64,000 nucleotides of DNA. Origin: a bacterium (GTDB lineage Bacteria; Patescibacteriota; Gracilibacteria; UBA1369; PNNO01). The notes under the pieces are model-generated. The model searched no databases. It worked only from the letters and a program-made list of their open reading frames with translations, and had not been told where the DNA came from. Positions 41,986 through 62,228 of the stretch are shown piece after piece. The position numbers and the translations under genes were made by a program. The stretch's first letter is position 1. Each line of letters starts with the position of its first letter. Location: assembly GCA_013824265.1 (NCBI GenBank), contig PNNO01000001.1:41051-105050 (forward strand), read 5' to 3'.

Positions 41986-42456
41986 ATGAAGATTGAAGCT
42001 GTACTAAAAGATACTCTCGAACAGATGCTTATAAGACTTGAAGCTCCTTTCGAAAACGTAGTGGTCGAAAAAGAAGATCAAAACGGCACAGATTTGTATA
42101 AACTTAACATTGAGACGGAAGATCCAAGCATGCTAATTGGATTCCACGGAGAAAATATCCATTCTCTTCAACATTTGTTAAAAGTTATTGCCTGGAAAAA
42201 AACCAATGAGGAATTCAATATTCTTTTGGATGTAGACAACTACAGACAAAGACAGGAAGAAAACGTTATCAGCCTAACGGAAAGAAAAATTGAGTTGGCA
42301 AAAAAGACAAGAAAGACACAGATACTTCCTCCAATGTCACCATACTTCAGAAGAGTGGTTCATCTTCACATAGCAAGCGCCGGACACAAAAACATCAAGA
42401 CTGAAAGTATTGGAGATGGAGATCACAGACAGGTCACTATTGTGTATGAAGATTAA
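41986..42456 (+). CDS. jag: Jag/KhpB-like RNA-binding protein (KH + R3H)
   Basis: An R3H motif is present (LPPMSPYFRRVVHLHIA). The gene sits in the conserved position after yidC. Confidence 0.8.
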   Translation: MKIEAVLKDTLEQMLIRLEAPFENVVVEKEDQNGTDLYKLNIETEDPSMLIGFHGENIHSLQHLLKVIAWKKTNEEFNILLDVDNYRQRQEENVISLTERKIELAKKTRKTQILPPMSPYFRRVVHLHIASAGHKNIKTESIGDGDHRQVTIVYED

Positions 42457-43411
42457 TAAATACATATCGGGGATTCTTGTATTAATTGGATTTGTATCTT
42501 CCGTACATTTTGCTTTTGCTCAGGAAGAAGTTTTGCCTGTGGAAGCGGTATACACCGATGTTGACACCGGTCATCCGGAATATGTGGCGATTAAGTATAT
42601 GTCGGAAAATGGGATTGTAAGCGGATATCCTGACGGCACTTTTAAACCTGACAACTTAATTAACAGAGCCGAAGCTTTAAAGATAATTCTTGAAGCAAAT
42701 AAAATTATCGATCCCGTTTATATAAAAGATAATACACTTGGCGGAGCGTCTTTTAATGCAGAAAATCTTCCATTTACCGATATTTACAAAAGTTTATGGT
42801 ACTACCCTTACATTAAAAAAGGTCTTGAAGAAGGGATTATAAATGGATATCCCGATGGAACTTTTAAACCGTCACAAACGGTAAACAGAGCTGAAAGTTT
42901 TAAAATGGCAATGGGAAGCGACAAAATTGTTTTACCTGAAGTTACGGAAAATCCATTTGCCGATGTTTACAAAGATCAATGGTTTGCGCCATATTTTCTT
43001 GAAGCAAAATTCAGAGAAATAGTTTATATAAACATGCAAAATTGTGTTAATCCGGGCAAAGAAATGACAAGATCTCATTTCACCGAACTTGTTTATAGAT
43101 ACATAAGAAGTAAAGAAGGTCATAAATTTGGCAAAGCAAGTTATTATAGCGATTATCTTGAAGGGAACGGAACATCTTCCGGTGAACCTTACCGGGCCGC
43201 AGAGCTTACAGCCGCACATTTAACTCTTCCTTTCGGAACAGTCGTCAGAGTAACAAATCTTGCAAACGGAAAGTCTGTAGATGTTAGAATTAATGACAGA
43301 GGCCCTTATGTAACAGGCAGATCAATCGATCTTTCCAAAACAGCCTTTGGAACAATAGCAAGCCTTGGTAGTGGAATAATCTACATTGAGTACCAAATCG
43401 TAACACAATAA
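42446..43411 (+). CDS. Secreted SLH-domain protein with a C-terminal RlpA-like double-psi beta-barrel (lytic transglycosylase-like)
   Basis: The protein has a signal peptide (VLIGFVSSVHFAFAQ) and two SLH-type repeats (GIVSGYPDGTFKPDNLINRAEALKII; GIINGYPDGTFKPSQTVNRAESFKMA). The RlpA/DPBB signature follows (GKASYYSDY..GNGTSSGEPY...AAHLTLPFGTVVRVTNLANGKSVDVRINDRGPY). I chose the start at the ATG at 42446. Confidence 0.75.
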   Translation: MKINKYISGILVLIGFVSSVHFAFAQEEVLPVEAVYTDVDTGHPEYVAIKYMSENGIVSGYPDGTFKPDNLINRAEALKIILEANKIIDPVYIKDNTLGGASFNAENLPFTDIYKSLWYYPYIKKGLEEGIINGYPDGTFKPSQTVNRAESFKMAMGSDKIVLPEVTENPFADVYKDQWFAPYFLEAKFREIVYINMQNCVNPGKEMTRSHFTELVYRYIRSKEGHKFGKASYYSDYLEGNGTSSGEPYRAAELTAAHLTLPFGTVVRVTNLANGKSVDVRINDRGPYVTGRSIDLSKTAFGTIASLGSGIIYIEYQIVTQ

Positions 43412-43810: not shown

Positions 43811-43885
43811 GGTCCCATCGTCTAGTGGTTAGGACATCAGGTTTTCATCCTGAAAAGAGGGGTTCGATTCCCCTTGGGACTACCA
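43811..43885 (+). tRNA. tRNA-Glu (anticodon UUC), CCA encoded
   Basis: I folded the cloverleaf by hand. The acceptor stem pairs GGTCCCA with TGGGACT. The anticodon stem pairs TCAGG with CCTGA around the loop TTTTCAT (anticodon TTC). The T arm is AGGGG-TTCGATT-CCCCT, and the 3' end is ACCA. Confidence 0.9.
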
Positions 43886-43924: not shown

Positions 43925-46900
43925 TTAGTTATGCCTTGCCCTGTAATAGACCACTAAGTTCCAGTCATCAATATTCTGATTACAGTTGTTGTCTATTCCC
44001 CATAACACGTATTGGTCCCCGGCAACATCTATATTTAATGCATTACTGTTATGTGCCTGTCCGGTAAGTGTGGCAGCCACAGTGCTTTCAAGAGAGTAAT
44101 TATCATCATTAGCATTGCTTCCGGTAGACCATATTTCAATATCAAAAGATCCGCTGGTACAAGCATCGTCATCTTCAGAAAAACCATAACCTGTTATGGT
44201 AATATTTCTAGGGACATAGAAACCTAAATCCGTCGCGGTATCGGGACCAAGCGCATCTCCCCAATCGACATTACAGTTCGCACTACTTCCGGGATCAGCC
44301 CCCGCATTACAAGTTCCCGTATCTTCACCAAACATAACAGACTCGGAAACCGACAGCCATTTGGTTCTTGTTCCATCACATATATACAAAAGCCCTGTGT
44401 CTGTATCCATCCATTGTCTTCCGGAAACACCAGCAGTACAAGCAACAGGAGGATTGGCACTTTGCTCAGTTCTAAATGAAAGCTGATTATCAAATGTAGA
44501 AATCAATCCTGCGGCACTATTCCATCCAAACAATCTGTTCAAATCCGTACCAAACTGAAGCGTAACATTTCCACCGCTTCCATCCTGATCAAGTATAAAA
44601 TTATCAGCATCTGTACCACTTATGGAAGTTGAACCACTCTCGTCAATCCTGTTCCAATCCGCAGCGCCAACGGCACTATCAACCAAAATCCAGCTTTGCT
44701 TGGAAACGGTATTTATCCAAACAGTACCAACATAATAGCCATCATTTCTATCATCGTTTACAGTTGGATCTGCAGTTGCCCTGTGGTTGCTAACATCATT
44801 TTTACTGTTTGTACTTGCATCGGAAATTACAGTCGTAACATTTGTAAATCTATTCTCCTGAAGATGATTCCTTTCCTGCGTAGCAGCGCTTAAACTAATA
44901 CCAACGTCCCAAGGATTTGTACCACCTGATATATTATTATTTGAAAAAGCGTTATCGTCCGCGTCACCCTCAACCAAGAAACCATAAGTAGTTCCCGCAG
45001 GATTGGAAGAACCTAAAACGGAATTATTTTCGAATGAATTTCTGTGCACCTGAGTATTGGTTGTATCCCCCACCACGAATCCATACATAAACCCAACTCC
45101 GCCGTTTGCTTCTCCATCAATAATATTTGCATTAAATATACTGTCTACCGTGCTGGAACCGCCTGTAAGACTAAAAGTATCTATACCTATACCAATTGCC
45201 GTTGCAGACAAAGAACCGCTAAACACATTCGCATTCATGTTAACGTTACTAACATCCCCCATAAATATTCCGTAAGCACCCGTCCCGCCAACACCCATTC
45301 TGGAAGCTCTGTTGTTAAATAATGAGCTATCATCCGCACCAACAAACACGTATCCGGTCTCCCTTATATAATCAACGTTGTTTCCTTCCACAAGGGCATT
45401 TTGCACTCTGTTTCCATAACCCCAAACACCATTAATACGTGCGTCGGAAGTAACATGAATTCCATCTGTAAAATAATTTCCGGCACCATTACCAAAAACT
45501 CTTACATTCTTTATAACAGGCCTAACAAGATCACTTGCACTGCCGTCAAGAAATTGTATGCCGATTCGTGCCGCCGCATCTCCACTACCCGAAGCCCCGG
45601 CCTTTTTCTGGACCGTAACATTATATATTTGATTATCATTTCCTCCGGCGACTCTAATGCCGTGGATTTCGGAAGACACTTCCAATTTGAAATCTTTTAA
45701 AACAACGTCATTTGAAGGAGCTGTCCCATTTGTTGCGCCAATTTGAATTGCCGCAGTAGAATCTGCTATCCCGGCAAAACCGGACGCCGATATTATGGAA
45801 GAATCTCCATATCCAACTAGTTGTATACTGTCACCATTTATTGTAATTGGCTGAGTTATTGAATGAGTGCCTGGCAAAATTGTTATCAACCCACCTTTCC
45901 CTGTAAACTCAAGACTGTCTATTGCGCCCTGTAAATTCATGTCCGGAGAAACTATAATTGAATTTGAAGGAACAGATTTTATTATTCCGGTCGTATTAAC
46001 ATTTCCACCGGCAACAAGGCTTACACTCCAATCAGACATCTGAAGGGACTTATCCGCACTTCTGCTGTCAACGAATATCGTGGAAGTTGGATTTAAATTT
46101 CCGCCAGCTATTGTTTTTAATATTTTTCCAAGACCAGCAGACTCATAACATTTTATAAATTTCATTACCACGGTAGGAGCCGTGCCGGCGGTACTGTCGA
46201 TTAACGAATCTCCGCTGTCCTGAATATCAAAATCAACCCACTCAAAAGCAAGAGCATTTGATCCTGCCGCAACATCAATCGCCATTGAAGCGTCAATTGC
46301 ATTTATATCAAGCTTTAAATTTTTAAAAGCCGTGTCAAAAGAATCTATCTGCCCCGCACCTGAAATCTGAATTATAGTGTTACTATCATCTTTCCCAATT
46401 AGCGTTATATTTCTTAAATTAACCGGATTTGTTATTTGATGTGTCTGAGCCGCAAGAAGCATTATTCCTCCGGAAAGCGTATTTAAATACCCGGCAGCAT
46501 TTGCTATGGTTGCATAATCCGAATTAACCGTACCAACAGTGATAACCTTTGAAGCACTTGTAGCAATTTCAGTTATATCAATCCAGTCTGTGCCATCACA
46601 AACATAAGTTTTTTTATCAACTGTGTTGTGGTACATACGCCCCGGATATGTATTGTTGCAAAGAGGATCACTGGCTGCGTTCTCAACACGGAAATCTTTT
46701 ATTTGATTCCCCTCAAGACTTAAATTGGCATTAAACGAGAAAGATGAATCTACGCTGTCCCAAATTAAATATTTATTAATTGCACTACCAAACTGGAGCT
46801 TTATATCTCCACCCGTATCATCCCCGTCAATTACAAAAATATTGTCGATTTCGTCCTGCTTATCTGTATTAATAACCGTTGTTCCTTGCGCATAAACAGA

Positions 46901-46966
46901 CGTTGCCTGTAAAATAAGCACCGTAAGTATAATTCCTGTTTTTTTAAAAAATCCTTCCAATTTCAT
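43925..46966 (-). CDS. Large secreted right-handed beta-helix protein (pectate-lyase/tailspike-like) with terminal DDTGGD-LQFG modules
   Basis: The protein has a signal peptide (ILTVLILQATSVYAQ). Its long central region has G/N/V/I-rich repeats of about 22-25 residues typical of parallel beta-helices (for example NNVDYIRETGYVFVG, ADDSSLFNNRASRMG, GIFMGDVSNVNMNANVFSG). The N-terminal 130 aa are collinear with the neighbouring 346-aa protein, and a related module recurs near the C-terminus. Confidence 0.65.
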   Translation of the reverse strand: MKLEGFFKKTGIILTVLILQATSVYAQGTTVINTDKQDEIDNIFVIDGDDTGGDIKLQFGSAINKYLIWDSVDSSFSFNANLSLEGNQIKDFRVENAASDPLCNNTYPGRMYHNTVDKKTYVCDGTDWIDITEIATSASKVITVGTVNSDYATIANAAGYLNTLSGGIMLLAAQTHQITNPVNLRNITLIGKDDSNTIIQISGAGQIDSFDTAFKNLKLDINAIDASMAIDVAAGSNALAFEWVDFDIQDSGDSLIDSTAGTAPTVVMKFIKCYESAGLGKILKTIAGGNLNPTSTIFVDSRSADKSLQMSDWSVSLVAGGNVNTTGIIKSVPSNSIIVSPDMNLQGAIDSLEFTGKGGLITILPGTHSITQPITINGDSIQLVGYGDSSIISASGFAGIADSTAAIQIGATNGTAPSNDVVLKDFKLEVSSEIHGIRVAGGNDNQIYNVTVQKKAGASGSGDAAARIGIQFLDGSASDLVRPVIKNVRVFGNGAGNYFTDGIHVTSDARINGVWGYGNRVQNALVEGNNVDYIRETGYVFVGADDSSLFNNRASRMGVGGTGAYGIFMGDVSNVNMNANVFSGSLSATAIGIGIDTFSLTGGSSTVDSIFNANIIDGEANGGVGFMYGFVVGDTTNTQVHRNSFENNSVLGSSNPAGTTYGFLVEGDADDNAFSNNNISGGTNPWDVGISLSAATQERNHLQENRFTNVTTVISDASTNSKNDVSNHRATADPTVNDDRNDGYYVGTVWINTVSKQSWILVDSAVGAADWNRIDESGSTSISGTDADNFILDQDGSGGNVTLQFGTDLNRLFGWNSAAGLISTFDNQLSFRTEQSANPPVACTAGVSGRQWMDTDTGLLYICDGTRTKWLSVSESVMFGEDTGTCNAGADPGSSANCNVDWGDALGPDTATDLGFYVPRNITITGYGFSEDDDACTSGSFDIEIWSTGSNANDDNYSLESTVAATLTGQAHNSNALNIDVAGDQYVLWGIDNNCNQNIDDWNLVVYYRARHN

Positions 46967-46980
46967 TTTGTTTTACTAAA

Positions 46981-48021
46981 TTACTCAAGGTGAATTATAG
47001 CATCCAGAAAACCTCCACTGCAAGCTGTTACAGCAGATCCAATGATTTTCGTAGAACTCCCTCCGGCCTTTGCTGCGCCCACAACCGAGGATGTTTGTAT
47101 AAGCTCTCCAACATTAACGGCCCCGGTACACATAACTGTCCCTTTTCCTATCAAAATTGCATTAACGATTTCTCCGTGAGCCGTATCATTTACTGCAACC
47201 CCTATTGGCTGATCATTTTGAGAAACAGTTAACATAACCGCATTAACTTCAGTCGGATCAATTTGTAAAACATGCCCGGCTAAAATAGTGTTTCCAACAC
47301 CTTCCTGCCCATTATTAAAACTAACAACAAACCCACCTTCGCCAACCGACACATCTCCATTTTCAATATTAAGCCCACCAACAGCATATATATTACTCCA
47401 TCTAAGATCTTCCGAGCCCAAAGAATACATATTATCAACAGCCGGAAGAAGATCTCCATCAACTTTTAACCCATCGGAAAGATAAAATCTGCCTTCCGAA
47501 TCATCCCAAACCAAATATTCATTCAATAGATCTCCAAACTGCAATACAACATCTCCCCCGGTATCATCCTGGTCCAAAACGAAAGTATTACTATCAACAC
47601 CGGTGATGGCTGATCCTGCAGGGATATCTATTTGCTCCCAGTCAGTCCCATTACAAATATATGAATTTAAATTGACCGTATTGTGATATAACCGCCCTAT
47701 TGCCGACCCGTCGCAAGTAGGAATAGATGACAAATTATCTATTCTAAAATTCTTAATTTCGTTTCCCTGTAAATAAACATCGTCGTTAAAAGAAAAATAA
47801 TCACTTGCACTGTCCCATTCCAAATATTTATCAAGAGTTCCTCCGAATTGAAGTTTTATATCTCCACCGGTGTCATCAGCGTCCAGAACAAGAGTGTTAT
47901 CAAGCTGCTCAATATCAGTGTTTATTAAGAGCACGCCCTGCGCATATACAACAACGTTTCCAACACAAATCATCATAATGATTTGAGAAAATGCCAATAT
48001 TGTTTTTATTTTTGTATTCAT
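46981..48021 (-). CDS. Secreted protein sharing the DDTGGD-LQFG N-terminal module, with a tail-fibre-like C-terminal region
   Basis: The protein has a signal peptide (MMICVGNVVVYAQ). Module 1 covers aa 44-132 and a half module covers aa 147-183. The motif YSLGSEDLRWSNIY follows, and then a Gly/Val-rich beta domain. Confidence 0.6.
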   Translation of the reverse strand: MNTKIKTILAFSQIIMMICVGNVVVYAQGVLLINTDIEQLDNTLVLDADDTGGDIKLQFGGTLDKYLEWDSASDYFSFNDDVYLQGNEIKNFRIDNLSSIPTCDGSAIGRLYHNTVNLNSYICNGTDWEQIDIPAGSAITGVDSNTFVLDQDDTGGDVVLQFGDLLNEYLVWDDSEGRFYLSDGLKVDGDLLPAVDNMYSLGSEDLRWSNIYAVGGLNIENGDVSVGEGGFVVSFNNGQEGVGNTILAGHVLQIDPTEVNAVMLTVSQNDQPIGVAVNDTAHGEIVNAILIGKGTVMCTGAVNVGELIQTSSVVGAAKAGGSSTKIIGSAVTACSGGFLDAIIHLE

Positions 48022-48146
48022 AAATTCAAATAATCTATAGATTATAACATAAAATCAGTTTTTTTGGAATACCAAATACTACCAAACGGGAGCTTGGAGA
48101 TTAAAAAAACAACATAAAAACAGACCACTGACACCCTCCATTTTAC

Positions 48147-49493
48147 TTATTTTAAAAGACGACTCTCTATTCCTTTCGCATATTTTCTAATCATATGATC
48201 TGTAATTGTTCCTGTTTTGCAGATTTCGGAATAAACCTGACTACTGGATTTTGGAATTCTTTCAAATGTCCTGTGACTCATAGATAACAAACCAAACGGT
48301 TGAGTGTACCCTTCCGCCCATTCAAAATTATCCATAAAAGACCAATATAAATATCCTTTAACATCCACCCCTTCACGCATAGCTCTATTTACAGCATCCA
48401 AATGCCTTATTATGTAAGAAATCCTTTGCGTATCATCAAGCGTGGAAATTCCGTTTTCCGAAACAAAAATAGGCTTTCTTGCTTTTCTGTAAATAATTTT
48501 CAAAAGATAATAAAGTCCCTCCGGAAAAACCTCCCAATTAAACAAAGTTCTCTCTATCCCTTCTCCGGCATGCGCTTTCATATGAAGCGGAGATTTAAAA
48601 ATCGAAAATTTACAGCTACATCTAAAATAATAATTTACTCCAATAAAATCCAAACTTTCCTTTACGCTGTGAATCTTTCCAAAGCCAAATAAAAGCGGAG
48701 ACCTACCAGTATAAAAAGGCTTAAAATAAAGTTTATTATAAAAATATTGATATGCCCGCGACAAGAATCTGTCCATCATGCTTTCCTTATTGTCCGGATC
48801 AAACCAGACAAGACTTTTTGCAAAACCAACTTCCGGATTTCCCCAACCATTGTTTCTGTATTCCTCTTTTATAATTTGATAAGCATCAATATGAACATGT
48901 AAAAGCTCCTTTAAAACTTTAAGAGATTTTATAATGCTGCGTTCTCCCGGAGGCCAAAGCCCTTCCCAGTAACCAAAACTTGTATAAACATAAGGCTCGT
49001 TTATAGTCATCCAATATTTAACAAGATCCCCAAGTTCACTTACAATTCTTCTTACGTATCTGTTAAAAATCTTTCTTCCGTCGGGATTTAAAAAACCACC
49101 CTGCTTTGCAAACCAATAAGGCAAAGTAAAGTGAAAAAGCGTAACCATGGGCTCTATCCCCTGCTTTCTTAATTCCAAAAGAACATTCCTGTAATGATTT
49201 ATTTCCGTTTTATTAAAATGCCCTTCCGTTGGCTCTATCCTGCTCCATTCAATTGAAAGTCTGTGCATGGAATGATGCATTGTCTTCATCATCGCAAAAT
49301 CTTTTTTATAAAGATCATAATGATTACATGCATCTCCGGAGACCTGCCGATTTAAAACTTTCCCACGTTGCTCCCACTCCCACCAATCATTAAAAATATT
49401 CTGCCCTTCAACCTGATGAGCTGACATTGAAGTTCCCCAATAAAAACTTTTTGGAAATTTTATTTCGTAATGTTTTTTTTCTTTTTTCTCCAT
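48147..49493 (-). CDS. Glycoside hydrolase family 1 (beta-glucosidase/beta-galactosidase type)
   Basis: The GH1 start is present (FPKSFYWGTSMSAHQVEG). The acid/base motif is TINEPYVY and the nucleophile motif is FVSENGIS. Confidence 0.88.
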   Translation of the reverse strand: MEKKEKKHYEIKFPKSFYWGTSMSAHQVEGQNIFNDWWEWEQRGKVLNRQVSGDACNHYDLYKKDFAMMKTMHHSMHRLSIEWSRIEPTEGHFNKTEINHYRNVLLELRKQGIEPMVTLFHFTLPYWFAKQGGFLNPDGRKIFNRYVRRIVSELGDLVKYWMTINEPYVYTSFGYWEGLWPPGERSIIKSLKVLKELLHVHIDAYQIIKEEYRNNGWGNPEVGFAKSLVWFDPDNKESMMDRFLSRAYQYFYNKLYFKPFYTGRSPLLFGFGKIHSVKESLDFIGVNYYFRCSCKFSIFKSPLHMKAHAGEGIERTLFNWEVFPEGLYYLLKIIYRKARKPIFVSENGISTLDDTQRISYIIRHLDAVNRAMREGVDVKGYLYWSFMDNFEWAEGYTQPFGLLSMSHRTFERIPKSSSQVYSEICKTGTITDHMIRKYAKGIESRLLK

Positions 49494-59774: not shown

Positions 59775-62228
59775 ATGAGAGCCAAAAAATACATTGGAGC
59801 CCTATGCGTTTTAATTTTATCATCAACAGTTTCTCAAAGCGTTTTAGCGTCAACTTTTTCAGACGTGCCATACAGCCATCCATACAGCACCTCAATATCT
59901 TTTCTGGAATCTTATGGAGTAATAAAAGGATATGAAGACGGCACTTACAGGCCGGATTCCCTAATAAATAGAGCCGAATTTTTAAAAATAGCGCTTGAAG
60001 CCACAAAAGTGGAACTCGACAATGCAACTTCAACGGGATTCACGGACGTCGACGAATCAGCCTGGTATGCCCCATATTTAAGAAAAGCAAAATCCGAAGG
60101 ATGGATTCAAGGGTATCCGGATGGGACTTTTAAACCGAATCAGGAAATAAACAAAGTTGAAGCCCTAAAGATGCTTGGTGAAATTCAAGCTTGGGACAGA
60201 CTAACCGCTCCTGAAGTTCCAGAGGCTGCATTTAAAGACACATACCGGTTCGTATGGTATTCGCCATATGTTTATTTTGCCAAAGAAAACAACCTGCTCT
60301 TTGAGGAGACCGAGTATCTGTATCCGGACCAAAAAATAAACAGAGGCTACATGGCCGAACTTGTATATAGGACGACAACAAAAAATGTAATAAATTACGA
60401 GCCAAATAAAACCGCAGAAGATAAAATTATCGAAGAGAAACAGGTTGAAACGCCATCGACATTTAAAATGATAGGAGCTGATTATTTTGATGACATAACT
60501 CTTGAAAACGACATTCCAAACGTAATGTATAAAAACGAAATATACCTTCTAAAAGGCACTTTTGACCAAGGTTTAAATGTTGATGACACATTTGCTTTCC
60601 TTTCAAAAAATAACGGAGGATCAAACGAATATAAGCATTTTTTTGGAACGGTTAATAACGGAGAATTCTTAATACCTGTGGTATTTAGAGAAGCCGGAGT
60701 TTTTAATTTGGGAATAGTTCCGGGTCTTTCCGGAGAAAGTAAAATATCCGAAATAACAGTCCTTGATGGAATCCCAAAAAGCGGCACAACAACAAACAAC
60801 GACATCCCAAAATCAATAAAGCCTTTATTTAAGAATGATACGACAAATGTTTCCTGGGAAAGCACACAAAACAATATATTTAGAATTTATTTCATACAGG
60901 ATCAAACTATGCACTCATATATAGTGAGAGGCAGAAAGACTTTGGATGCGATCTATAATGATTTTAAATTTTTCAAAGAAGGAAGCGTTAAAATAAGAGT
61001 ATACGGAGCACAGGCGGACTCACTTTATCCGGTAGCAATAAAATCAAAATGGGCTGTAAGTGCAGACACAACATTTGAGGCAATCAAACACAACTTTAGA
61101 CTTGTTTATGACGACTCGATAACCTATTCGACAATCCCGGAGATACTTTCTTCCGTGCAAAAAATATACGTATCGGGAACAACACACGAGTCAATTTTTA
61201 CCAATGGCGCGATAATAACACCATCGGGAAATGTTGATAACTTTGAGATAAAAACAGATGATGATTTATCTGAATATTATGGGAATGATGTAATAGAGGG
61301 TGGATCAAATTTTTCATTTATATACGAGCCATCCGAGACCGGAACTTACATTTTGGAAATAAACAATCTTAGTGGATCCGCTGTTGTTAATATCCCGATT
61401 TACATTGGAAATTCAATCCCGCTAATTCCTGATTTTTTTGACCTTCAAGACCCTTTTGAAAAAACCGAAAATCTTGACCTTGAGGCATCCAGAAAAGAAC
61501 TTCTGGACTATATAAACATTGAACGCCAAAATTATGAACTAACACAAATTAAAATTGTTTCACAGCTTAATACTTTGGCACAAAACCATACGAACGACAT
61601 GGTTAATAACGACTTTTTTGCGCATGTAAATCCTGACGGAGAAACACCAAACGACAGAAGAAAAAATCTTTCAATATACACGGATGTTGGAGAAAATCTG
61701 GCAATGGCACCAACCGTTTATTTTGCACATGAAGCGCTTATGAGAAGCGCGATACACAGAAAGAATATTTTAACTTCTTACTGGGATACGGTTGGAATAG
61801 GAATAACAAAAAATGACGAAGGACAGCTTGTGATAGCCGAAGAATTCTCACACGAACCATGGACTGACCAAGATCTGCAGAAATTTGAATATTATCTTTT
61901 GGATAATTTAAATGAGGGAAGAAGCTCTACTCTTCATTTGGACGCCAATCTACAAAGCGTCGCACATGATTGGTCCGAAGATATGATCACACAAAATTAT
62001 TTTTCGTTTATTTCTCCTGCTGGCGAAAATCTGATTGATGTGGTACAAGATAGTGGCGTTGCCGAAGAAGGAAGAGCCTATATATTGAAGGAAGGTTCAA
62101 TAGAATCTTTACTTGAACAACTGATTGAAGAAAGCGATGTAACGCAGGAGCAGTGGTCAAAAATAGGGTTCGGATTATCACAGGATCTTTGGAGCACTCT
62201 CTATCTAACGGTAATATTCACACAGTAA
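59775..62228 (+). CDS. Secreted SLH-domain protein with two C-terminal CAP/SCP (PR-1-like) domains
   Basis: The protein has a signal peptide and three SLH-type repeats (for example GVIKGYEDGTYRPDSLINRAEFLKIAL and WIQGYPDGTFKPNQEINKVEALKML). A beta-rich middle region follows. Two CAP-like modules come last (INIERQNYEL...LAQNHTNDMVNNDFFAHVNPDGETPNDR...GENLA; NEGRSSTL...VAHDWSEDMITQNYFSFISPAGE). Confidence 0.7.
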   Translation: MRAKKYIGALCVLILSSTVSQSVLASTFSDVPYSHPYSTSISFLESYGVIKGYEDGTYRPDSLINRAEFLKIALEATKVELDNATSTGFTDVDESAWYAPYLRKAKSEGWIQGYPDGTFKPNQEINKVEALKMLGEIQAWDRLTAPEVPEAAFKDTYRFVWYSPYVYFAKENNLLFEETEYLYPDQKINRGYMAELVYRTTTKNVINYEPNKTAEDKIIEEKQVETPSTFKMIGADYFDDITLENDIPNVMYKNEIYLLKGTFDQGLNVDDTFAFLSKNNGGSNEYKHFFGTVNNGEFLIPVVFREAGVFNLGIVPGLSGESKISEITVLDGIPKSGTTTNNDIPKSIKPLFKNDTTNVSWESTQNNIFRIYFIQDQTMHSYIVRGRKTLDAIYNDFKFFKEGSVKIRVYGAQADSLYPVAIKSKWAVSADTTFEAIKHNFRLVYDDSITYSTIPEILSSVQKIYVSGTTHESIFTNGAIITPSGNVDNFEIKTDDDLSEYYGNDVIEGGSNFSFIYEPSETGTYILEINNLSGSAVVNIPIYIGNSIPLIPDFFDLQDPFEKTENLDLEASRKELLDYINIERQNYELTQIKIVSQLNTLAQNHTNDMVNNDFFAHVNPDGETPNDRRKNLSIYTDVGENLAMAPTVYFAHEALMRSAIHRKNILTSYWDTVGIGITKNDEGQLVIAEEFSHEPWTDQDLQKFEYYLLDNLNEGRSSTLHLDANLQSVAHDWSEDMITQNYFSFISPAGENLIDVVQDSGVAEEGRAYILKEGSIESLLEQLIEESDVTQEQWSKIGFGLSQDLWSTLYLTVIFTQ

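What the first reader, a model, noticed from the sequence alone, without database searches (positions are those of the whole stretch)
43925..48021. Two adjacent secreted proteins share a collinear 130-aa N-terminal module, one carrying a ~600-aa beta-helix: a tailspike-like surface system next to a GH1 glycosidase
The 1013-aa and 346-aa proteins align position for position over their first 130 residues or so. The signal peptide ends at ...YAQG. Residues 49-54 are DDTGGD in both proteins, followed by IKLQFG, KYLxWDS, FSFN, GNxIKxFR, then a Cys...Cys pair around YHNTV..(K/N)xY(V/I)C(D/N)GTDW. A diverged copy of the same module recurs near the C-terminus of the large protein (nt about 44348-44599: FILDQDGSGGNVTLQFG...LLYICDGTRTKW). 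A half copy occurs in the small protein (nt about 47473-47583). Between the modules the large protein has long parallel beta-helix-type repeats, as in pectate lyases and phage tailspike depolymerases. The genes are 14 nt apart and lie downstream of a GH1 enzyme on the same strand. For a putative episymbiont, a shared docking module with exchangeable glycan-binding or glycan-cleaving heads could act on host surface polysaccharide. I know of no described system with this module.
Basis: partly seen in the sequence, partly recalled or inferred. Interest (0 to 1): 0.65.

Follow-up and report, generated by a model that had tools for sequence, protein, structure and literature searches.

The report
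Secreted phage-fibre-like surface proteins, CPR bacterium
Two neighbouring genes of a Peregrinibacteria (CPR) bacterium encode exported, fibre-like surface proteins, one with a long beta-helix body, that share an undescribed ~95-residue N-terminal module built from phage-tail-fibre-like repeats; they are candidate attachment proteins, with no sign of a working link to the glycosidase gene next door.

Summary
The two ORFs share a collinear N-terminal module (51% identity, E 5e-39). A full second copy lies in the large protein and a half copy in the small one. Residues 140-719 of the large protein model with high confidence as two tandem right-handed beta-helices.

These are cellular, Sec-exported genes in a housekeeping neighbourhood of a Peregrinibacteria genome, not a prophage. 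No Pfam, NCBIfam or PDB entry covers the module, yet 5,556 protein clusters carry it, usually directly after a signal peptide. Its two halves also occur as separate repeats, for example 19 times in an Arthrobacter phage minor tail protein. Its partner domains are mostly kinds known to form trimers or bind ligands: BclA_C/C1q heads, collagen, lectins.

The beta-helix body is the conserved part (50-65% identity). The C-terminal tip, and the gene content of this tRNA-Glu-bounded slot, are what vary. In relatives, module genes form clusters of 2-6, often beside a specific SLH-domain protein that is absent from this window. GH1 adjacency is local synteny only.

Best reading: trimeric surface fibres that bind, and possibly cleave, a glycan. 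I rate this a new variant of a known kind. The biochemical function is inferred, not shown.

The parts
46886..46966 (-). Large protein, residues 1-27: predicted Sec signal peptide ending VYA|QG
   Evidence: Hydrophobic N-terminus followed by a small-x-small motif, read directly from the sequence. Homologues conserve 'A(Y)AQG'. No lipobox Cys and no LPXTG. Inferred; no predictor was run.
46556..46855 (-). Large protein, residues 38-137: N-terminal module (half 1 DDTGGDIKLQFG..YLIWDS..FSFN; half 2 GNQIKDFRVEN..C..GRMYHNTV..TYVCDGTDW)
   Evidence: HMM E 3e-39. 51% identical to the small protein's N-terminus. Cys103/Cys123 pair covaries across the family.
45947..46549 (-). Large protein, residues 140-340: first, short right-handed beta-helix domain
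   Evidence: 10-residue pLDDT block means 84-95. It begins with the same cap-type motif as the second domain (..GGIMLL.A.TH.I...V.L.NITLIGK). Conserved 37-91% across the family, typically 50-65%.
44810..45934 (-). Large protein, residues 345-719: main right-handed parallel beta-helix with an Asn ladder and a conserved polar patch (H435 R438 D444 K454 D474 R482 R489 Y498 D501 H504 D532 E536 R553)
   Evidence: pLDDT block means 91-98. Foldseek matches to tailspikes, PfbA, AlgE4 and NosD. The family profile hits the N-cap of the Geobacillus virus E2 tailspike 7chu_A at E 4.7e-5. Invariant and near-invariant residues.
44630..44809 (-). Large protein, residues 720-779: neck resembling module half 2 (PTVNDDRNDGYYVGTVWINT...GAADWNRID)
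   Evidence: Weak HMM match. tblastn gives 39-47% identity to annotated tail fibre or tail proteins of Rhizobium, Pseudomonas and Dinoroseobacter phages.
44342..44617 (-). Large protein, residues 784-875: internal second copy of the module, with Cys843/Cys863
   Evidence: HMM E 9e-13. BLASTP to the small protein's module E 5e-9. Weak Mtd_N hit at 853-866, below Pfam's cutoff.
43928..44329 (-). Large protein, residues 880-1013: Cys-rich beta-rich tip domain, part of an exchangeable 'module + tip' cassette
   Evidence: Among homologues it is either present at 59-96% identity or replaced altogether. The cassette also exists as stand-alone 300-365 aa proteins and behind other N-termini. pLDDT block means 43-77, so the fold is not settled.
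47938..48021 (-). Small protein, residues 1-28: predicted Sec signal peptide ending VYA|QG
   Evidence: Read from the sequence; conserved AYAQG in homologues. Inferred.
47623..47916 (-). Small protein, residues 36-133: N-terminal module
   Evidence: HMM E 7e-40. About 52% identical, signal peptide included, to the N-termini of large-protein orthologues in close relatives.
47455..47598 (-). Small protein, residues 142-189: extra copy of module half 1 only
   Evidence: HMM E 1e-11, profile positions 8-56. 45% identical to large protein residues 42-90.
46984..47478 (-). Small protein, residues 182-346: phage-tail-fibre-like distal part (YSLGSEDLRWSNIY stalk motif, then a C-terminal domain)
   Evidence: phrog_19602 'tail fiber protein' E 1e-8 over residues 192-333. 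33-35% identity to the Campylobacter phage CP21-group tail fibre. Weak End_tail_spike and Phage_cement_2 hits. Weak fold matches to gpD, SHP and phi29 gp8.5 base, from a poor model.
48041..48049 (-). TGtTATAAT extended -10-like box 19 nt upstream of the small gene's ATG
   Evidence: Read. The box is conserved upstream of whichever module gene comes first in this slot in relatives L001, L003 and L004. Function not shown.
43811..43885 (+). tRNA-Glu(UUC) at one border of the variable slot
   Evidence: ARAGORN. The same tRNA borders the slot in L001, L003, L004, L007 and L010.

Best explanation
The two genes encode Sec-exported, fibre-like cell-surface proteins of a Peregrinibacteria (CPR) bacterium. 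They belong to a large, unannotated family defined by a ~95-residue module that normally follows the signal peptide.

Proposed anatomy of the large protein, from the cell outward:
- signal peptide;
- module, stabilised by one disulfide;
- two stacked right-handed beta-helices forming a rigid body, with a conserved polar groove;
- a tail-fibre-type neck;
- a second module copy;
- a Cys-rich tip.

The small protein uses the same signal peptide and module, followed by a phage-tail-fibre-like distal part.

Proposed mechanism:
- After export the chains assemble, most likely as homotrimers.
- The N-terminal module lies nearest the cell and mediates assembly or attachment to the envelope.
- The beta-helix groove binds, and possibly cleaves, a conserved polysaccharide.
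- The exchangeable distal domain supplies ligand specificity, for contact with another cell or with the organism's own envelope.
- Variation arises by swapping C-terminal cassettes, and whole genes, in a slot bounded by tRNA-Glu.

Shown here: homology, fold, architecture, distribution, synteny and mosaicism. Inferred: export, trimer state, envelope attachment, and glycan binding or cleavage.
For: Module:
- The covarying Cys pair (125 both, 99 neither, 2 single) fits an extracytoplasmic disulfide.
- 5,556 representative clusters match the module at E<=1e-3, and 102 at E<=1e-30.
- 79 of 94 near-full modules start within the first 75 residues, and 70 of those proteins have a hydrophobic N-terminus.
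- No Pfam, NCBIfam or PDB sequence family covers it.

Fibre nature:
- Among 74 module proteins the partner domains are BclA_C (17), collagen (4), C1q (2), DUF2793 (3), F5/8-C, H-lectin, CBM5/12, Lcl_C, Phage_fiber_rpt, BppL_N and Gp53-like_C.
- From general knowledge, these are largely trimer-forming or ligand-binding modules.
- Module half 2 occurs 19 times in a 4,266-aa Arthrobacter phage minor tail protein.

Beta-helix:
- The model is high-confidence.
- It gives tailspike, adhesin, epimerase and NosD fold matches.
- The profile matches the tailspike 7chu N-cap.
- The body is 50-65% identical across the family, with a conserved polar patch spanning positions 435-553.

Cellular rather than viral:
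- The locus is syntenic with RnpA-YidC-Jag-SLH/DPBB-tRNA-Glu on one side and GH1-DJ1-RNR on the other in relatives.
- No relative was found in IMG/VR viral contigs.

Mosaicism and slot variation:
- Searches show the cassette swapping.
- The slot holds the large gene only (L001, L003), the small gene only (L004), or both (window).

Family context:
- Relatives carry clusters of 2-6 co-directional module genes.
- A specific ~330-aa SLH-domain protein is often immediately adjacent.
- The reverse test, seeded on that SLH protein, found module genes in 13 of 28 loci of at least 6 kb, 7 of them directly adjacent.
Against: - No experiment, and no multimer model, supports trimerisation or envelope attachment.
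- Neither protein has an SLH domain, LPXTG motif or lipobox, so how it would stay on the cell is unknown. It could simply be released.
- The module's halves also occur as internal and tandem shaft repeats, so the N-terminal copy need not be a docking domain.
- Paralogous modules within one locus are usually no more alike than modules from different genomes: the nearest neighbour is in the same locus in only 10 of 57 cases. That gives no support for co-evolution with one shared partner.
- The SLH partner protein is absent from this 64-kb window.
- No catalytic motif of any known beta-helix enzyme family was recognised, and no beta-helix Pfam model hits any of 48 family members even at E<=1.
- The small protein's model is poor (pLDDT 55.6).
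Confidence: 0.55

Rival explanations
1. These are envelope-maintenance or S-layer-associated proteins. The highly conserved beta-helix would act on the organism's own secondary cell-wall polymer or surface glycan, as a remodelling enzyme or structural spike, rather than on a host.
For: - The beta-helix body is far more conserved than is usual for host-range determinants (50-65% identity from Peregrinibacteria to Moranbacteria and Parcubacteria).
- Module-gene clusters are recurrently adjacent to SLH-domain proteins, which are cell-wall-polymer binders.
- In the window an SLH+DPBB (RlpA-like) gene lies two small genes away.
- Published Peribacteria genomes show heavy investment in surface polymers (PMC4736985).
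Against: - Exchangeable lectin, C1q and tail-fibre-like distal domains, together with strain-level presence or absence in the slot, fit an outward-facing recognition role better.
- There is no SLH domain in the proteins themselves.
- The specific SLH partner is not in this window.
Confidence: 0.2
2. This is a secreted polysaccharide depolymerase working with the neighbouring GH1 beta-glucosidase as a small nutrient-acquisition locus. The beta-helix enzyme would cut a polymer outside the cell and GH1 would finish the oligosaccharides inside.
For: - The genes are on the same strand as GH1 and close to it.
- The fold is shared with many polysaccharide lyases and hydrolases.
- A conserved polar patch lies on consecutive coils.
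Against: - GH1 adjacency is confined to close relatives (L001, L003, L004, L007, L008, L010, L026). No GH1 was found in the more distant loci.
- In L001 and L004 an oppositely oriented VanY gene separates them.
- The GH1-small intergenic region holds a terminator-like hairpin and a separate conserved promoter-like box.
- No transporter or regulator is linked.
- The fibre-type partner domains are not typical of nutritional enzymes.
Confidence: 0.1
3. These are leftover or domesticated phage tail-fibre and tailspike genes (prophage remnant or tailocin component) rather than a cellular surface system.
For: - Several segments are homologous to phage tail fibres.
- The beta-helix fold is that of tailspikes.
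- The slot borders a tRNA gene.
Against: - Both proteins start with Sec-type signal peptides, which virion proteins lack.
- No other phage gene or integrase lies in the slot or its flanks, in the window or in relatives.
- The large-protein family is conserved and syntenic across a CPR lineage.
- It was not found in 2.9 million IMG/VR contigs by the pattern scan.
Confidence: 0.05

Closest known systems
Phage tailspikes and beta-helical depolymerases (P22 gp9, CBA120 TSP3, Geobacillus virus E2 ORF18, phi29-type pre-neck appendage)
   Same: Both have a right-handed parallel beta-helix body of several hundred residues with the same type of N-cap motif. Both carry short neck elements homologous to tail-fibre segments and show a modular, mosaic build.
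   Different: The window protein is encoded in a cellular housekeeping context and starts with a Sec signal peptide where tailspikes have a virion-binding domain. Here the beta-helix is the conserved part and the C-terminal tip is the variable one, whereas in tailspikes the N-terminus is usually conserved and the beta-helix variable. Sequence identity is only about 12%, and there is no sequence-family membership.
PfbA of Streptococcus pneumoniae and similar beta-helical bacterial surface adhesins
   Same: Both are exported cellular proteins whose main body is a right-handed beta-helix. PfbA is among the top fold matches (4mr0, 3zpp).
   Different: From general knowledge, PfbA is LPXTG-anchored and monomeric. 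The window protein has no LPXTG, carries the N-terminal module, and has a second beta-helix and a distal tip cassette.
BclA-type collagen-like surface filaments (Bacillus exosporium nap) and Legionella Lcl
   Same: These are exported trimeric fibres with an N-terminal region that, from general knowledge, targets the protein to a surface layer, and a globular C1q/TNF-like head. 17 of 74 module-bearing relatives carry BclA_C and 4 carry collagen repeats.
   Different: The two window proteins have neither collagen repeats nor BclA_C. The N-terminal module is unrelated in sequence to the BclA N-terminal targeting motif.
Mtd (Bordetella phage BPP-1 major tropism determinant) N-terminal domain, Pfam PF18454
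   Same: The motif G-x-x-Y-x-(D/N)-T...Y-x-C-D-G of module half 2 gives weak Mtd_N hits (E 0.03 to 0.001). From general knowledge, Mtd_N is a trimer-forming element.
   Different: All hits fall below Pfam's cutoff. There are no template/variable repeat pairs at the locus, and no search for a reverse transcriptase was made. The rest of Mtd (C-type lectin fold) is not present.

Membership tests
Pectin-lyase-fold / right-handed parallel beta-helix superfamily | Right-handed three-sheet parallel beta-helix fold | tested here: met
   AlphaFold2 10-residue pLDDT block means are 84-98 over residues 140-719. Foldseek probability 1.0 to many beta-helix structures, TM-score (target-normalised) up to 0.67 for AlgE4. 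Asn ladder at 529, 552, 580, 614, 648, 677 and 705.
Pectin-lyase-fold / right-handed parallel beta-helix superfamily | Match to a curated sequence family (Beta_helix, Pectate_lyase_3, NosD, GH28 and similar) | tested here: not met
   No such Pfam family hits the window protein or any of 48 family members at E<=1. NCBIfam gives nothing. The only sequence signal is a profile hit to the N-cap of 7chu_A, E 4.7e-5.
Pectin-lyase-fold / right-handed parallel beta-helix superfamily | Carbohydrate-active catalytic site | not testable with these tools
   A conserved polar patch (H435...R553) is seen.
Phage tailspike / tail fibre (virion receptor-binding protein) | Encoded among phage structural genes | tested here: not met
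   Neighbours are RnpA, YidC, Jag, SLH/DPBB, tRNA-Glu, GH1, DJ-1 and RNR, syntenic in relatives. No relative found in IMG/VR.
Phage tailspike / tail fibre (virion receptor-binding protein) | Sequence homology to tail-fibre modules | tested here: met
   phrog_19602 E 1e-8 and phrog_8309 E 7e-7. tblastn hits to Campylobacter, Rhizobium, Pseudomonas and Dinoroseobacter phage tail proteins. Module half 2 repeated in the Arthrobacter phage minor tail protein.
Phage tailspike / tail fibre (virion receptor-binding protein) | Homotrimeric assembly | not testable with these tools
   Only single-chain prediction was available. The trimer state is inferred from partner domains.
SLH-anchored S-layer / cell-wall proteins | SLH repeats in the protein itself | tested here: not met
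   No SLH hit in either protein. SLH occurs only in neighbouring genes.
Sortase-anchored or lipoprotein surface proteins | C-terminal LPXTG motif, or a lipobox Cys after the signal peptide | tested here: not met
   A regular-expression search found no LPXTG-like motif. The residue after the predicted cleavage site is Gln, not Cys.
BclA/collagen-like surface filaments | Collagen G-X-Y repeats and a BclA_C/C1q head | tested here: not met
   No run of 4 or more G-X-Y repeats and no BclA_C hit in the window proteins. Both are present in other module-bearing proteins.
DGR target proteins (Mtd-like) | Mtd_N above threshold, a C-type-lectin variable region, and a template repeat with reverse transcriptase nearby | tested here: not met
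   Mtd_N scores 14.5 bits against a cutoff of 26.3. No direct repeat involving the locus exists in the window. No search for a reverse transcriptase was made.
Glycan-utilisation locus coupled to GH1 | Conserved co-occurrence and co-transcription with the glycosidase | tested here: not met
   GH1 is adjacent only in close relatives. A terminator-like hairpin and a separate promoter-like box lie between the genes.

The most novel reading that the evidence does not exclude
The module marks a dedicated, multi-component attachment apparatus of CPR bacteria (Peregrinibacteria, Gracilibacteria and relatives). Operons of 2-6 different phage-fibre-derived proteins would all use the same N-terminal module to dock onto a cell-wall-anchored base, namely the ~330-aa SLH protein with a conserved C-terminal domain. 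They would present exchangeable glycan-binding or glycan-cutting heads to a host cell. Parts of the kit, such as the tip domain, are also found in archaea, where the tip sits behind a FlaF-like N-terminus.
Probability: 0.18. Interest if true: 0.8.

Novelty: new variant of a known kind. Interest (0 to 1): 0.5.

Why it matters
How CPR bacteria outside the Saccharibacteria recognise and hold on to other cells is essentially unknown. Their large exported proteins are mostly annotated 'hypothetical'.

This locus gives a concrete and testable handle:
- a widespread module (thousands of protein clusters) that flags a class of secreted fibre proteins;
- a strongly conserved beta-helix body with a candidate binding or catalytic groove;
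- exchangeable tips and a strain-variable genomic slot;
- in relatives, a recurrent SLH-anchored neighbour that could be the cell-side partner.

If confirmed, the module would be a useful marker for annotating surface-interaction genes in CPR genomes. It would also be a starting point for finding hosts or ligands.

Tried and rejected
- Recent gene conversion between the two N-termini. Rejected: DNA identity is 61%, the longest exact run is 14 nt, and differences are spread along the alignment.
- Concerted evolution of modules within a genome, as evidence for one shared docking partner. Not supported: the nearest neighbour is in the same locus in only 10 of 57 cases. Paralogue positions form orthologous lineages.
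- Diversity-generating retroelement target. Rejected: there is only a sub-threshold Mtd_N hit, and no repeats involve the locus.
- Prophage or tailocin remnant. Rejected on context, signal peptides and absence from IMG/VR.
- GH1-coupled system. Rejected on distribution and the intergenic signals.
- Assignment of the beta-helix to a known enzyme family. Failed: Pfam on 48 members, NCBIfam, and PDB by sequence gave only an N-cap match.
- Assignment of the module to a solved structure. Failed.
- Fold of the small protein. The model is too poor (pLDDT 55.6), so the gpD/SHP/gp8.5-like matches (E 0.1-0.5) are only a hint.
- Viral-contig scan with the module alignment. Could not run, because no stretch was conserved enough.
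- Pfam on 10 cluster paralogues from relatives. No family was found for any.
- Literature. Four full-text searches found no description of this module or cluster. The Peribacteria genome paper only notes large, strain-variable extracellular proteins.

Full report
**1. What is in the sequence**

The region holds two minus-strand ORFs 14 nt apart: 43925..46966 (1013 aa) and 46981..48021 (346 aa). A GH1 gene (48147..49493, Pfam E 3.6e-88) lies 125 nt upstream on the same strand. A tRNA-Glu gene (43811..43885, plus strand) lies just past the 3' end of the large gene.

BLASTP aligns residues 13-138 of the large protein with 14-138 of the small one at 51% identity, with one gap, E 5e-39. I built an HMM from 95 homologous N-termini and searched all six frames of the window. 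It finds the module only in these two genes:
- large protein 38-137, E 3e-39;
- large protein 784-875, E 9e-13;
- a weak second-half-only match at large protein 720-779;
- small protein 36-133, E 7e-40;
- a first-half-only copy at small protein 142-189, E 1e-11.

At the DNA level the two 5' regions are only 61% identical, with differences spread throughout and a longest exact run of 14 nt. This is an old protein-level similarity, not a recent conversion tract.

Both proteins begin with a basic, then hydrophobic, segment ending V-Y-A|Q-G, and homologues conserve it. Neither has a lipobox Cys, an LPXTG motif or collagen repeats. Export by Sec is therefore inferred from the sequence.

**2. The module**

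An alignment of 27 diverse copies (A3) shows two halves. Half 1 reads ..D.DDtgGD..LQFG..l...L.WD.....F.f..d. Half 2 reads .N.i.n.r.EN....P.C.....G..Y.NT....tYvC.G..W..i.

The two Cys residues covary. Among 226 near-full modules, 125 have both, 99 have neither and 2 have one. The internal copy in the large protein keeps the pair with the same spacing (843/863). This is the pattern of a structural disulfide and fits an extracytoplasmic location.

No Pfam, NCBIfam or PDB sequence entry covers the module. The only signal is a sub-threshold Mtd_N hit on the G..Y.DT...Y.CDG stretch.

A profile search of 1.84 billion representative proteins finds 5,556 clusters at E<=1e-3, 802 at E<=1e-10 and 102 at E<=1e-30. 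Of the 139 best new hits:
- 94 carry a near-full module;
- in 79 of these it starts within the first 75 residues;
- 70 of those also have a hydrophobic N-terminus.

So the canonical architecture is signal peptide, then module, then a variable remainder.

The halves also occur alone as tandem arrays, up to about 20 per protein. One such protein is a 4,266-aa 'minor tail protein' of Arthrobacter phages Mimi and Racecar, with 19 half-2 stretches.

Across 74 module proteins the recognisable partner domains are BclA_C (17), collagen (4), DUF2793 (3), C1q (2), F5/8 type C, H-lectin, CBM5/12, Lcl_C, Phage_fiber_rpt, BppL_N and Gp53-like_C. From general knowledge of these families they are largely trimer-forming fibre elements and ligand-binding heads. 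That is the basis for inferring that module proteins are trimeric fibres.

**3. The large protein**

AlphaFold2 with a 74-sequence alignment gives mean pLDDT 81.6. Most 10-residue blocks between 140 and 719 average 90 or more (range 84-98). The modules (55-85) and the tip (43-77) are less certain.

The secondary structure shows two beta-rich solenoid domains, 140-340 and 345-719. Each begins with a cap-like motif (..GG.i.L.pGtH.i...l.i....i.i.G.G).

Fold and sequence comparisons:
- Foldseek against PDB returns only right-handed beta-helix proteins. Examples are Geobacillus virus E2 ORF18, PfbA, CBA120 TSP3, P22 tailspike, AlgE4 (best target-normalised TM 0.67), NosD, GH87 and inulin fructotransferases, all at about 12% identity.
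- The viral library returns tailspikes, pre-neck appendages and 'pectate lyase superfamily' proteins.
- By sequence, only the N-cap of 7chu_A is detected (E 4.7e-5).
- No beta-helix Pfam model hits any of 48 family members, even at E<=1.

Fold membership is therefore met and sequence-family membership is not.

The near-invariant Asn residues at 529, 552, 580, 614, 648, 677 and 705 are spaced one coil apart, a classical Asn ladder. A set of near-invariant polar residues (H435, R438, D444, K454, D474, R482, R489, Y498, D501, H504, D532, E536, R553) spans roughly five consecutive coils. I read this as a conserved binding or catalytic groove. That is an inference, because coordinates could not be inspected.

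**4. The small protein**

After the module and the extra half 1 come a 'YSLGSEDLRWSNIY' stretch and a C-terminal domain. These match a PHROG of tail fibre proteins (phrog_19602, E 1e-8) and the C-terminal part of the Campylobacter phage CP21-group tail fibre (33-35% identity over 120 residues).

Weak hits to End_tail_spike and Phage_cement_2, and weak fold matches to gpD, SHP and the phi29 gp8.5 base, point the same way. They rest on a poor model (pLDDT 55.6) and are only hints.

**5. Family, taxonomy and mosaicism**

The large protein has at least 84 relatives, nearly all unnamed. In species-representative genomes they come mostly from Peregrinibacteria, Peribacteria and Gracilibacteria MAGs, with some Moranbacteria and Parcubacteria.

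Conservation by region differs sharply:
- beta-helix body: typically 50-65% identity;
- N-terminal module: 23-67%;
- last 230 residues (module copy plus tip): either retained at 59-96% or replaced outright.

The 'module + tip' cassette also exists in other forms:
- as stand-alone 300-365 aa proteins, sometimes encoded on the same contig as a large-family member;
- on an archaeal contig (prefoldin, L5e, S5, L30 neighbours), where the tip follows a FlaF-like N-terminus.

What is exchangeable is thus the distal end, not the beta-helix.

**6. Genomic context**

In close relatives the flanks are syntenic: RnpA-YidC-Jag-SLH/DPBB-a 111-aa protein-tRNA-Glu on one side and GH1-DJ-1-RNR on the other. 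The slot between them varies:
- L001: large gene only, with VanY, a histidine phosphatase and an HTH gene;
- L003: large gene only, with three other genes;
- L004: small gene only;
- the window: both.

The small protein's first 131 residues, signal peptide included, are about 52% identical to the N-terminus of large-protein orthologues. Whichever module gene comes first in the slot is preceded by a conserved TGnTATAAT box; in the window it lies at 48049..48041, minus strand.

GH1 has no export signal. It is followed by a terminator-like hairpin (48082..48097). It is adjacent only in close relatives. I found no evidence of a functional link.

No phage genes occur in or near the slot. Pattern scans of 2.9 million viral contigs found no relatives of either protein.

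**7. Wider neighbourhood in relatives**

In many more distant loci, module genes sit in co-directional clusters of 2-6. A recurring order is a gene of about 450 aa, one of about 570 aa, then a large-type gene of about 900-1050 aa. None of ten such paralogues has any Pfam domain.

The only non-module family that recurs near them is an SLH-domain protein, found in 24 of 38 loci. More precisely, it is a ~330-aa protein with three SLH repeats and a conserved ~130-residue C-terminal domain, 50-75% identical between loci. It is often the immediately adjacent gene.

As a reverse test I seeded a metagenome scan with that C-terminal domain alone. Of 28 loci of at least 6 kb, 13 contain module genes, and 7 have one directly adjacent. 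The association is real but not obligate.

This partner gene is not present in the 64-kb window. The window holds other SLH proteins at 42410..43411 and 59775..62228.

**8. Interpretation**

The best-supported reading is that these are cellular, exported, probably trimeric fibre proteins assembled from phage-fibre-type modules.
- The N-terminal module has a strong positional preference directly after the signal peptide. That fits a role in assembly or in attachment at the cell-proximal end.
- The beta-helix is a rigid, conserved body with a likely glycan-binding or glycan-cleaving groove.
- The distal cassettes provide variable specificity.

The SLH association in relatives suggests that the fibres belong to the cell envelope.

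Several points remain untested: whether the target is another cell, as the symbiotic lifestyle proposed for Peribacteria in PMC4736985 would suggest, or the organism's own surface polymers; whether the beta-helix is catalytic; and whether the module docks on anything.

Within-locus modules are not systematically more alike than between-genome ones. This removes one possible argument for a shared docking partner.

**9. Novelty and verdict**

Beta-helical adhesins, tailspike-like depolymerases and fibre proteins with exchangeable heads are all known kinds. What is new here:
- the module itself, which is widespread but undescribed;
- the sequence family of the beta-helix body;
- the clustered, slot-variable genomic organisation in a CPR lineage, and its link to a specific SLH protein.

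I rate it a new variant of a known kind, interest 0.5.

Noticed in passing
L007 2870-3862; L017 18380-19459; L020 1746-2732; L024 1392-2381; L027 11715-12722; L036 13869-16002; L038 10885-11874; L039 11512-13523; L040 11554-13565; L043 7353-8393: A specific ~330-aa protein (three SLH repeats plus a conserved ~130-residue C-terminal domain with no Pfam match) lies immediately beside module-gene clusters in many relatives. A reverse search seeded on that domain found module genes in 13 of 28 metagenome loci of at least 6 kb. The gene is absent from the 64-kb window.
   Followed up: partly
L042 5521-6597 (protein P0267); also P0265: The Cys-rich tip domain of the large protein, with the preceding half-2 motif, occurs on a contig with archaeal markers (prefoldin, ribosomal L5e, S5, L30). 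There it is fused behind a FlaF_Ig-like, archaellum-type N-terminus (Pfam E 2e-5, below cutoff). This suggests domain sharing between CPR bacteria and archaea.
   Followed up: partly
window 43811-43885 and the slot 43925-48146; L001, L003, L004, L007, L010: tRNA-Glu(UUC) is a fixed border of a strain-variable slot. Its content differs between close relatives: large gene, small gene or both, plus VanY, a histidine phosphatase and an HTH gene in some. No integrase was seen.
   Followed up: partly
window 48041-48049 (minus strand); L001, L003, L004 upstream of the first module gene: A TGnTATAAT extended -10-like box is conserved upstream of whichever module gene comes first in the slot, only about 19 nt before the ATG in the window. 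That implies a very short leader.
   Followed up: partly
L043 (contig DAOWGG010000076.1); proteins P0109, P0248, P0249: The best-scoring module protein (1449 aa, 7 module stretches) belongs to a cluster whose NCBI members are labelled Pacearchaeota. Its contig, however, carries bacterial-type S7 and S12 genes and an SLH gene, so the label is probably a binning error.
   Followed up: no
window 42410-43411 and 59775-62228: Two SLH-domain proteins lie within 64 kb. One is fused to an RlpA-like DPBB domain, the other is 817 aa. SLH-mediated wall anchoring therefore seems common in this organism.
   Followed up: no
window 44001-46000: The large gene has higher G+C (0.42) than the window average (about 0.37) and strongly negative GC skew. 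This may simply reflect its Gly, Ala, Asn and Asp-rich composition and minus-strand coding.
   Followed up: no
L013, L017, L020, L021, L024, L035-L040: Module-gene clusters in distant relatives keep a recurring gene order: about 450 aa with an internal module, about 570 aa with an N-terminal module, then a large beta-helix type of 900-1050 aa. Paralogue positions behave as separate orthologous lineages. None of ten paralogues tested has a Pfam domain.
   Followed up: partly
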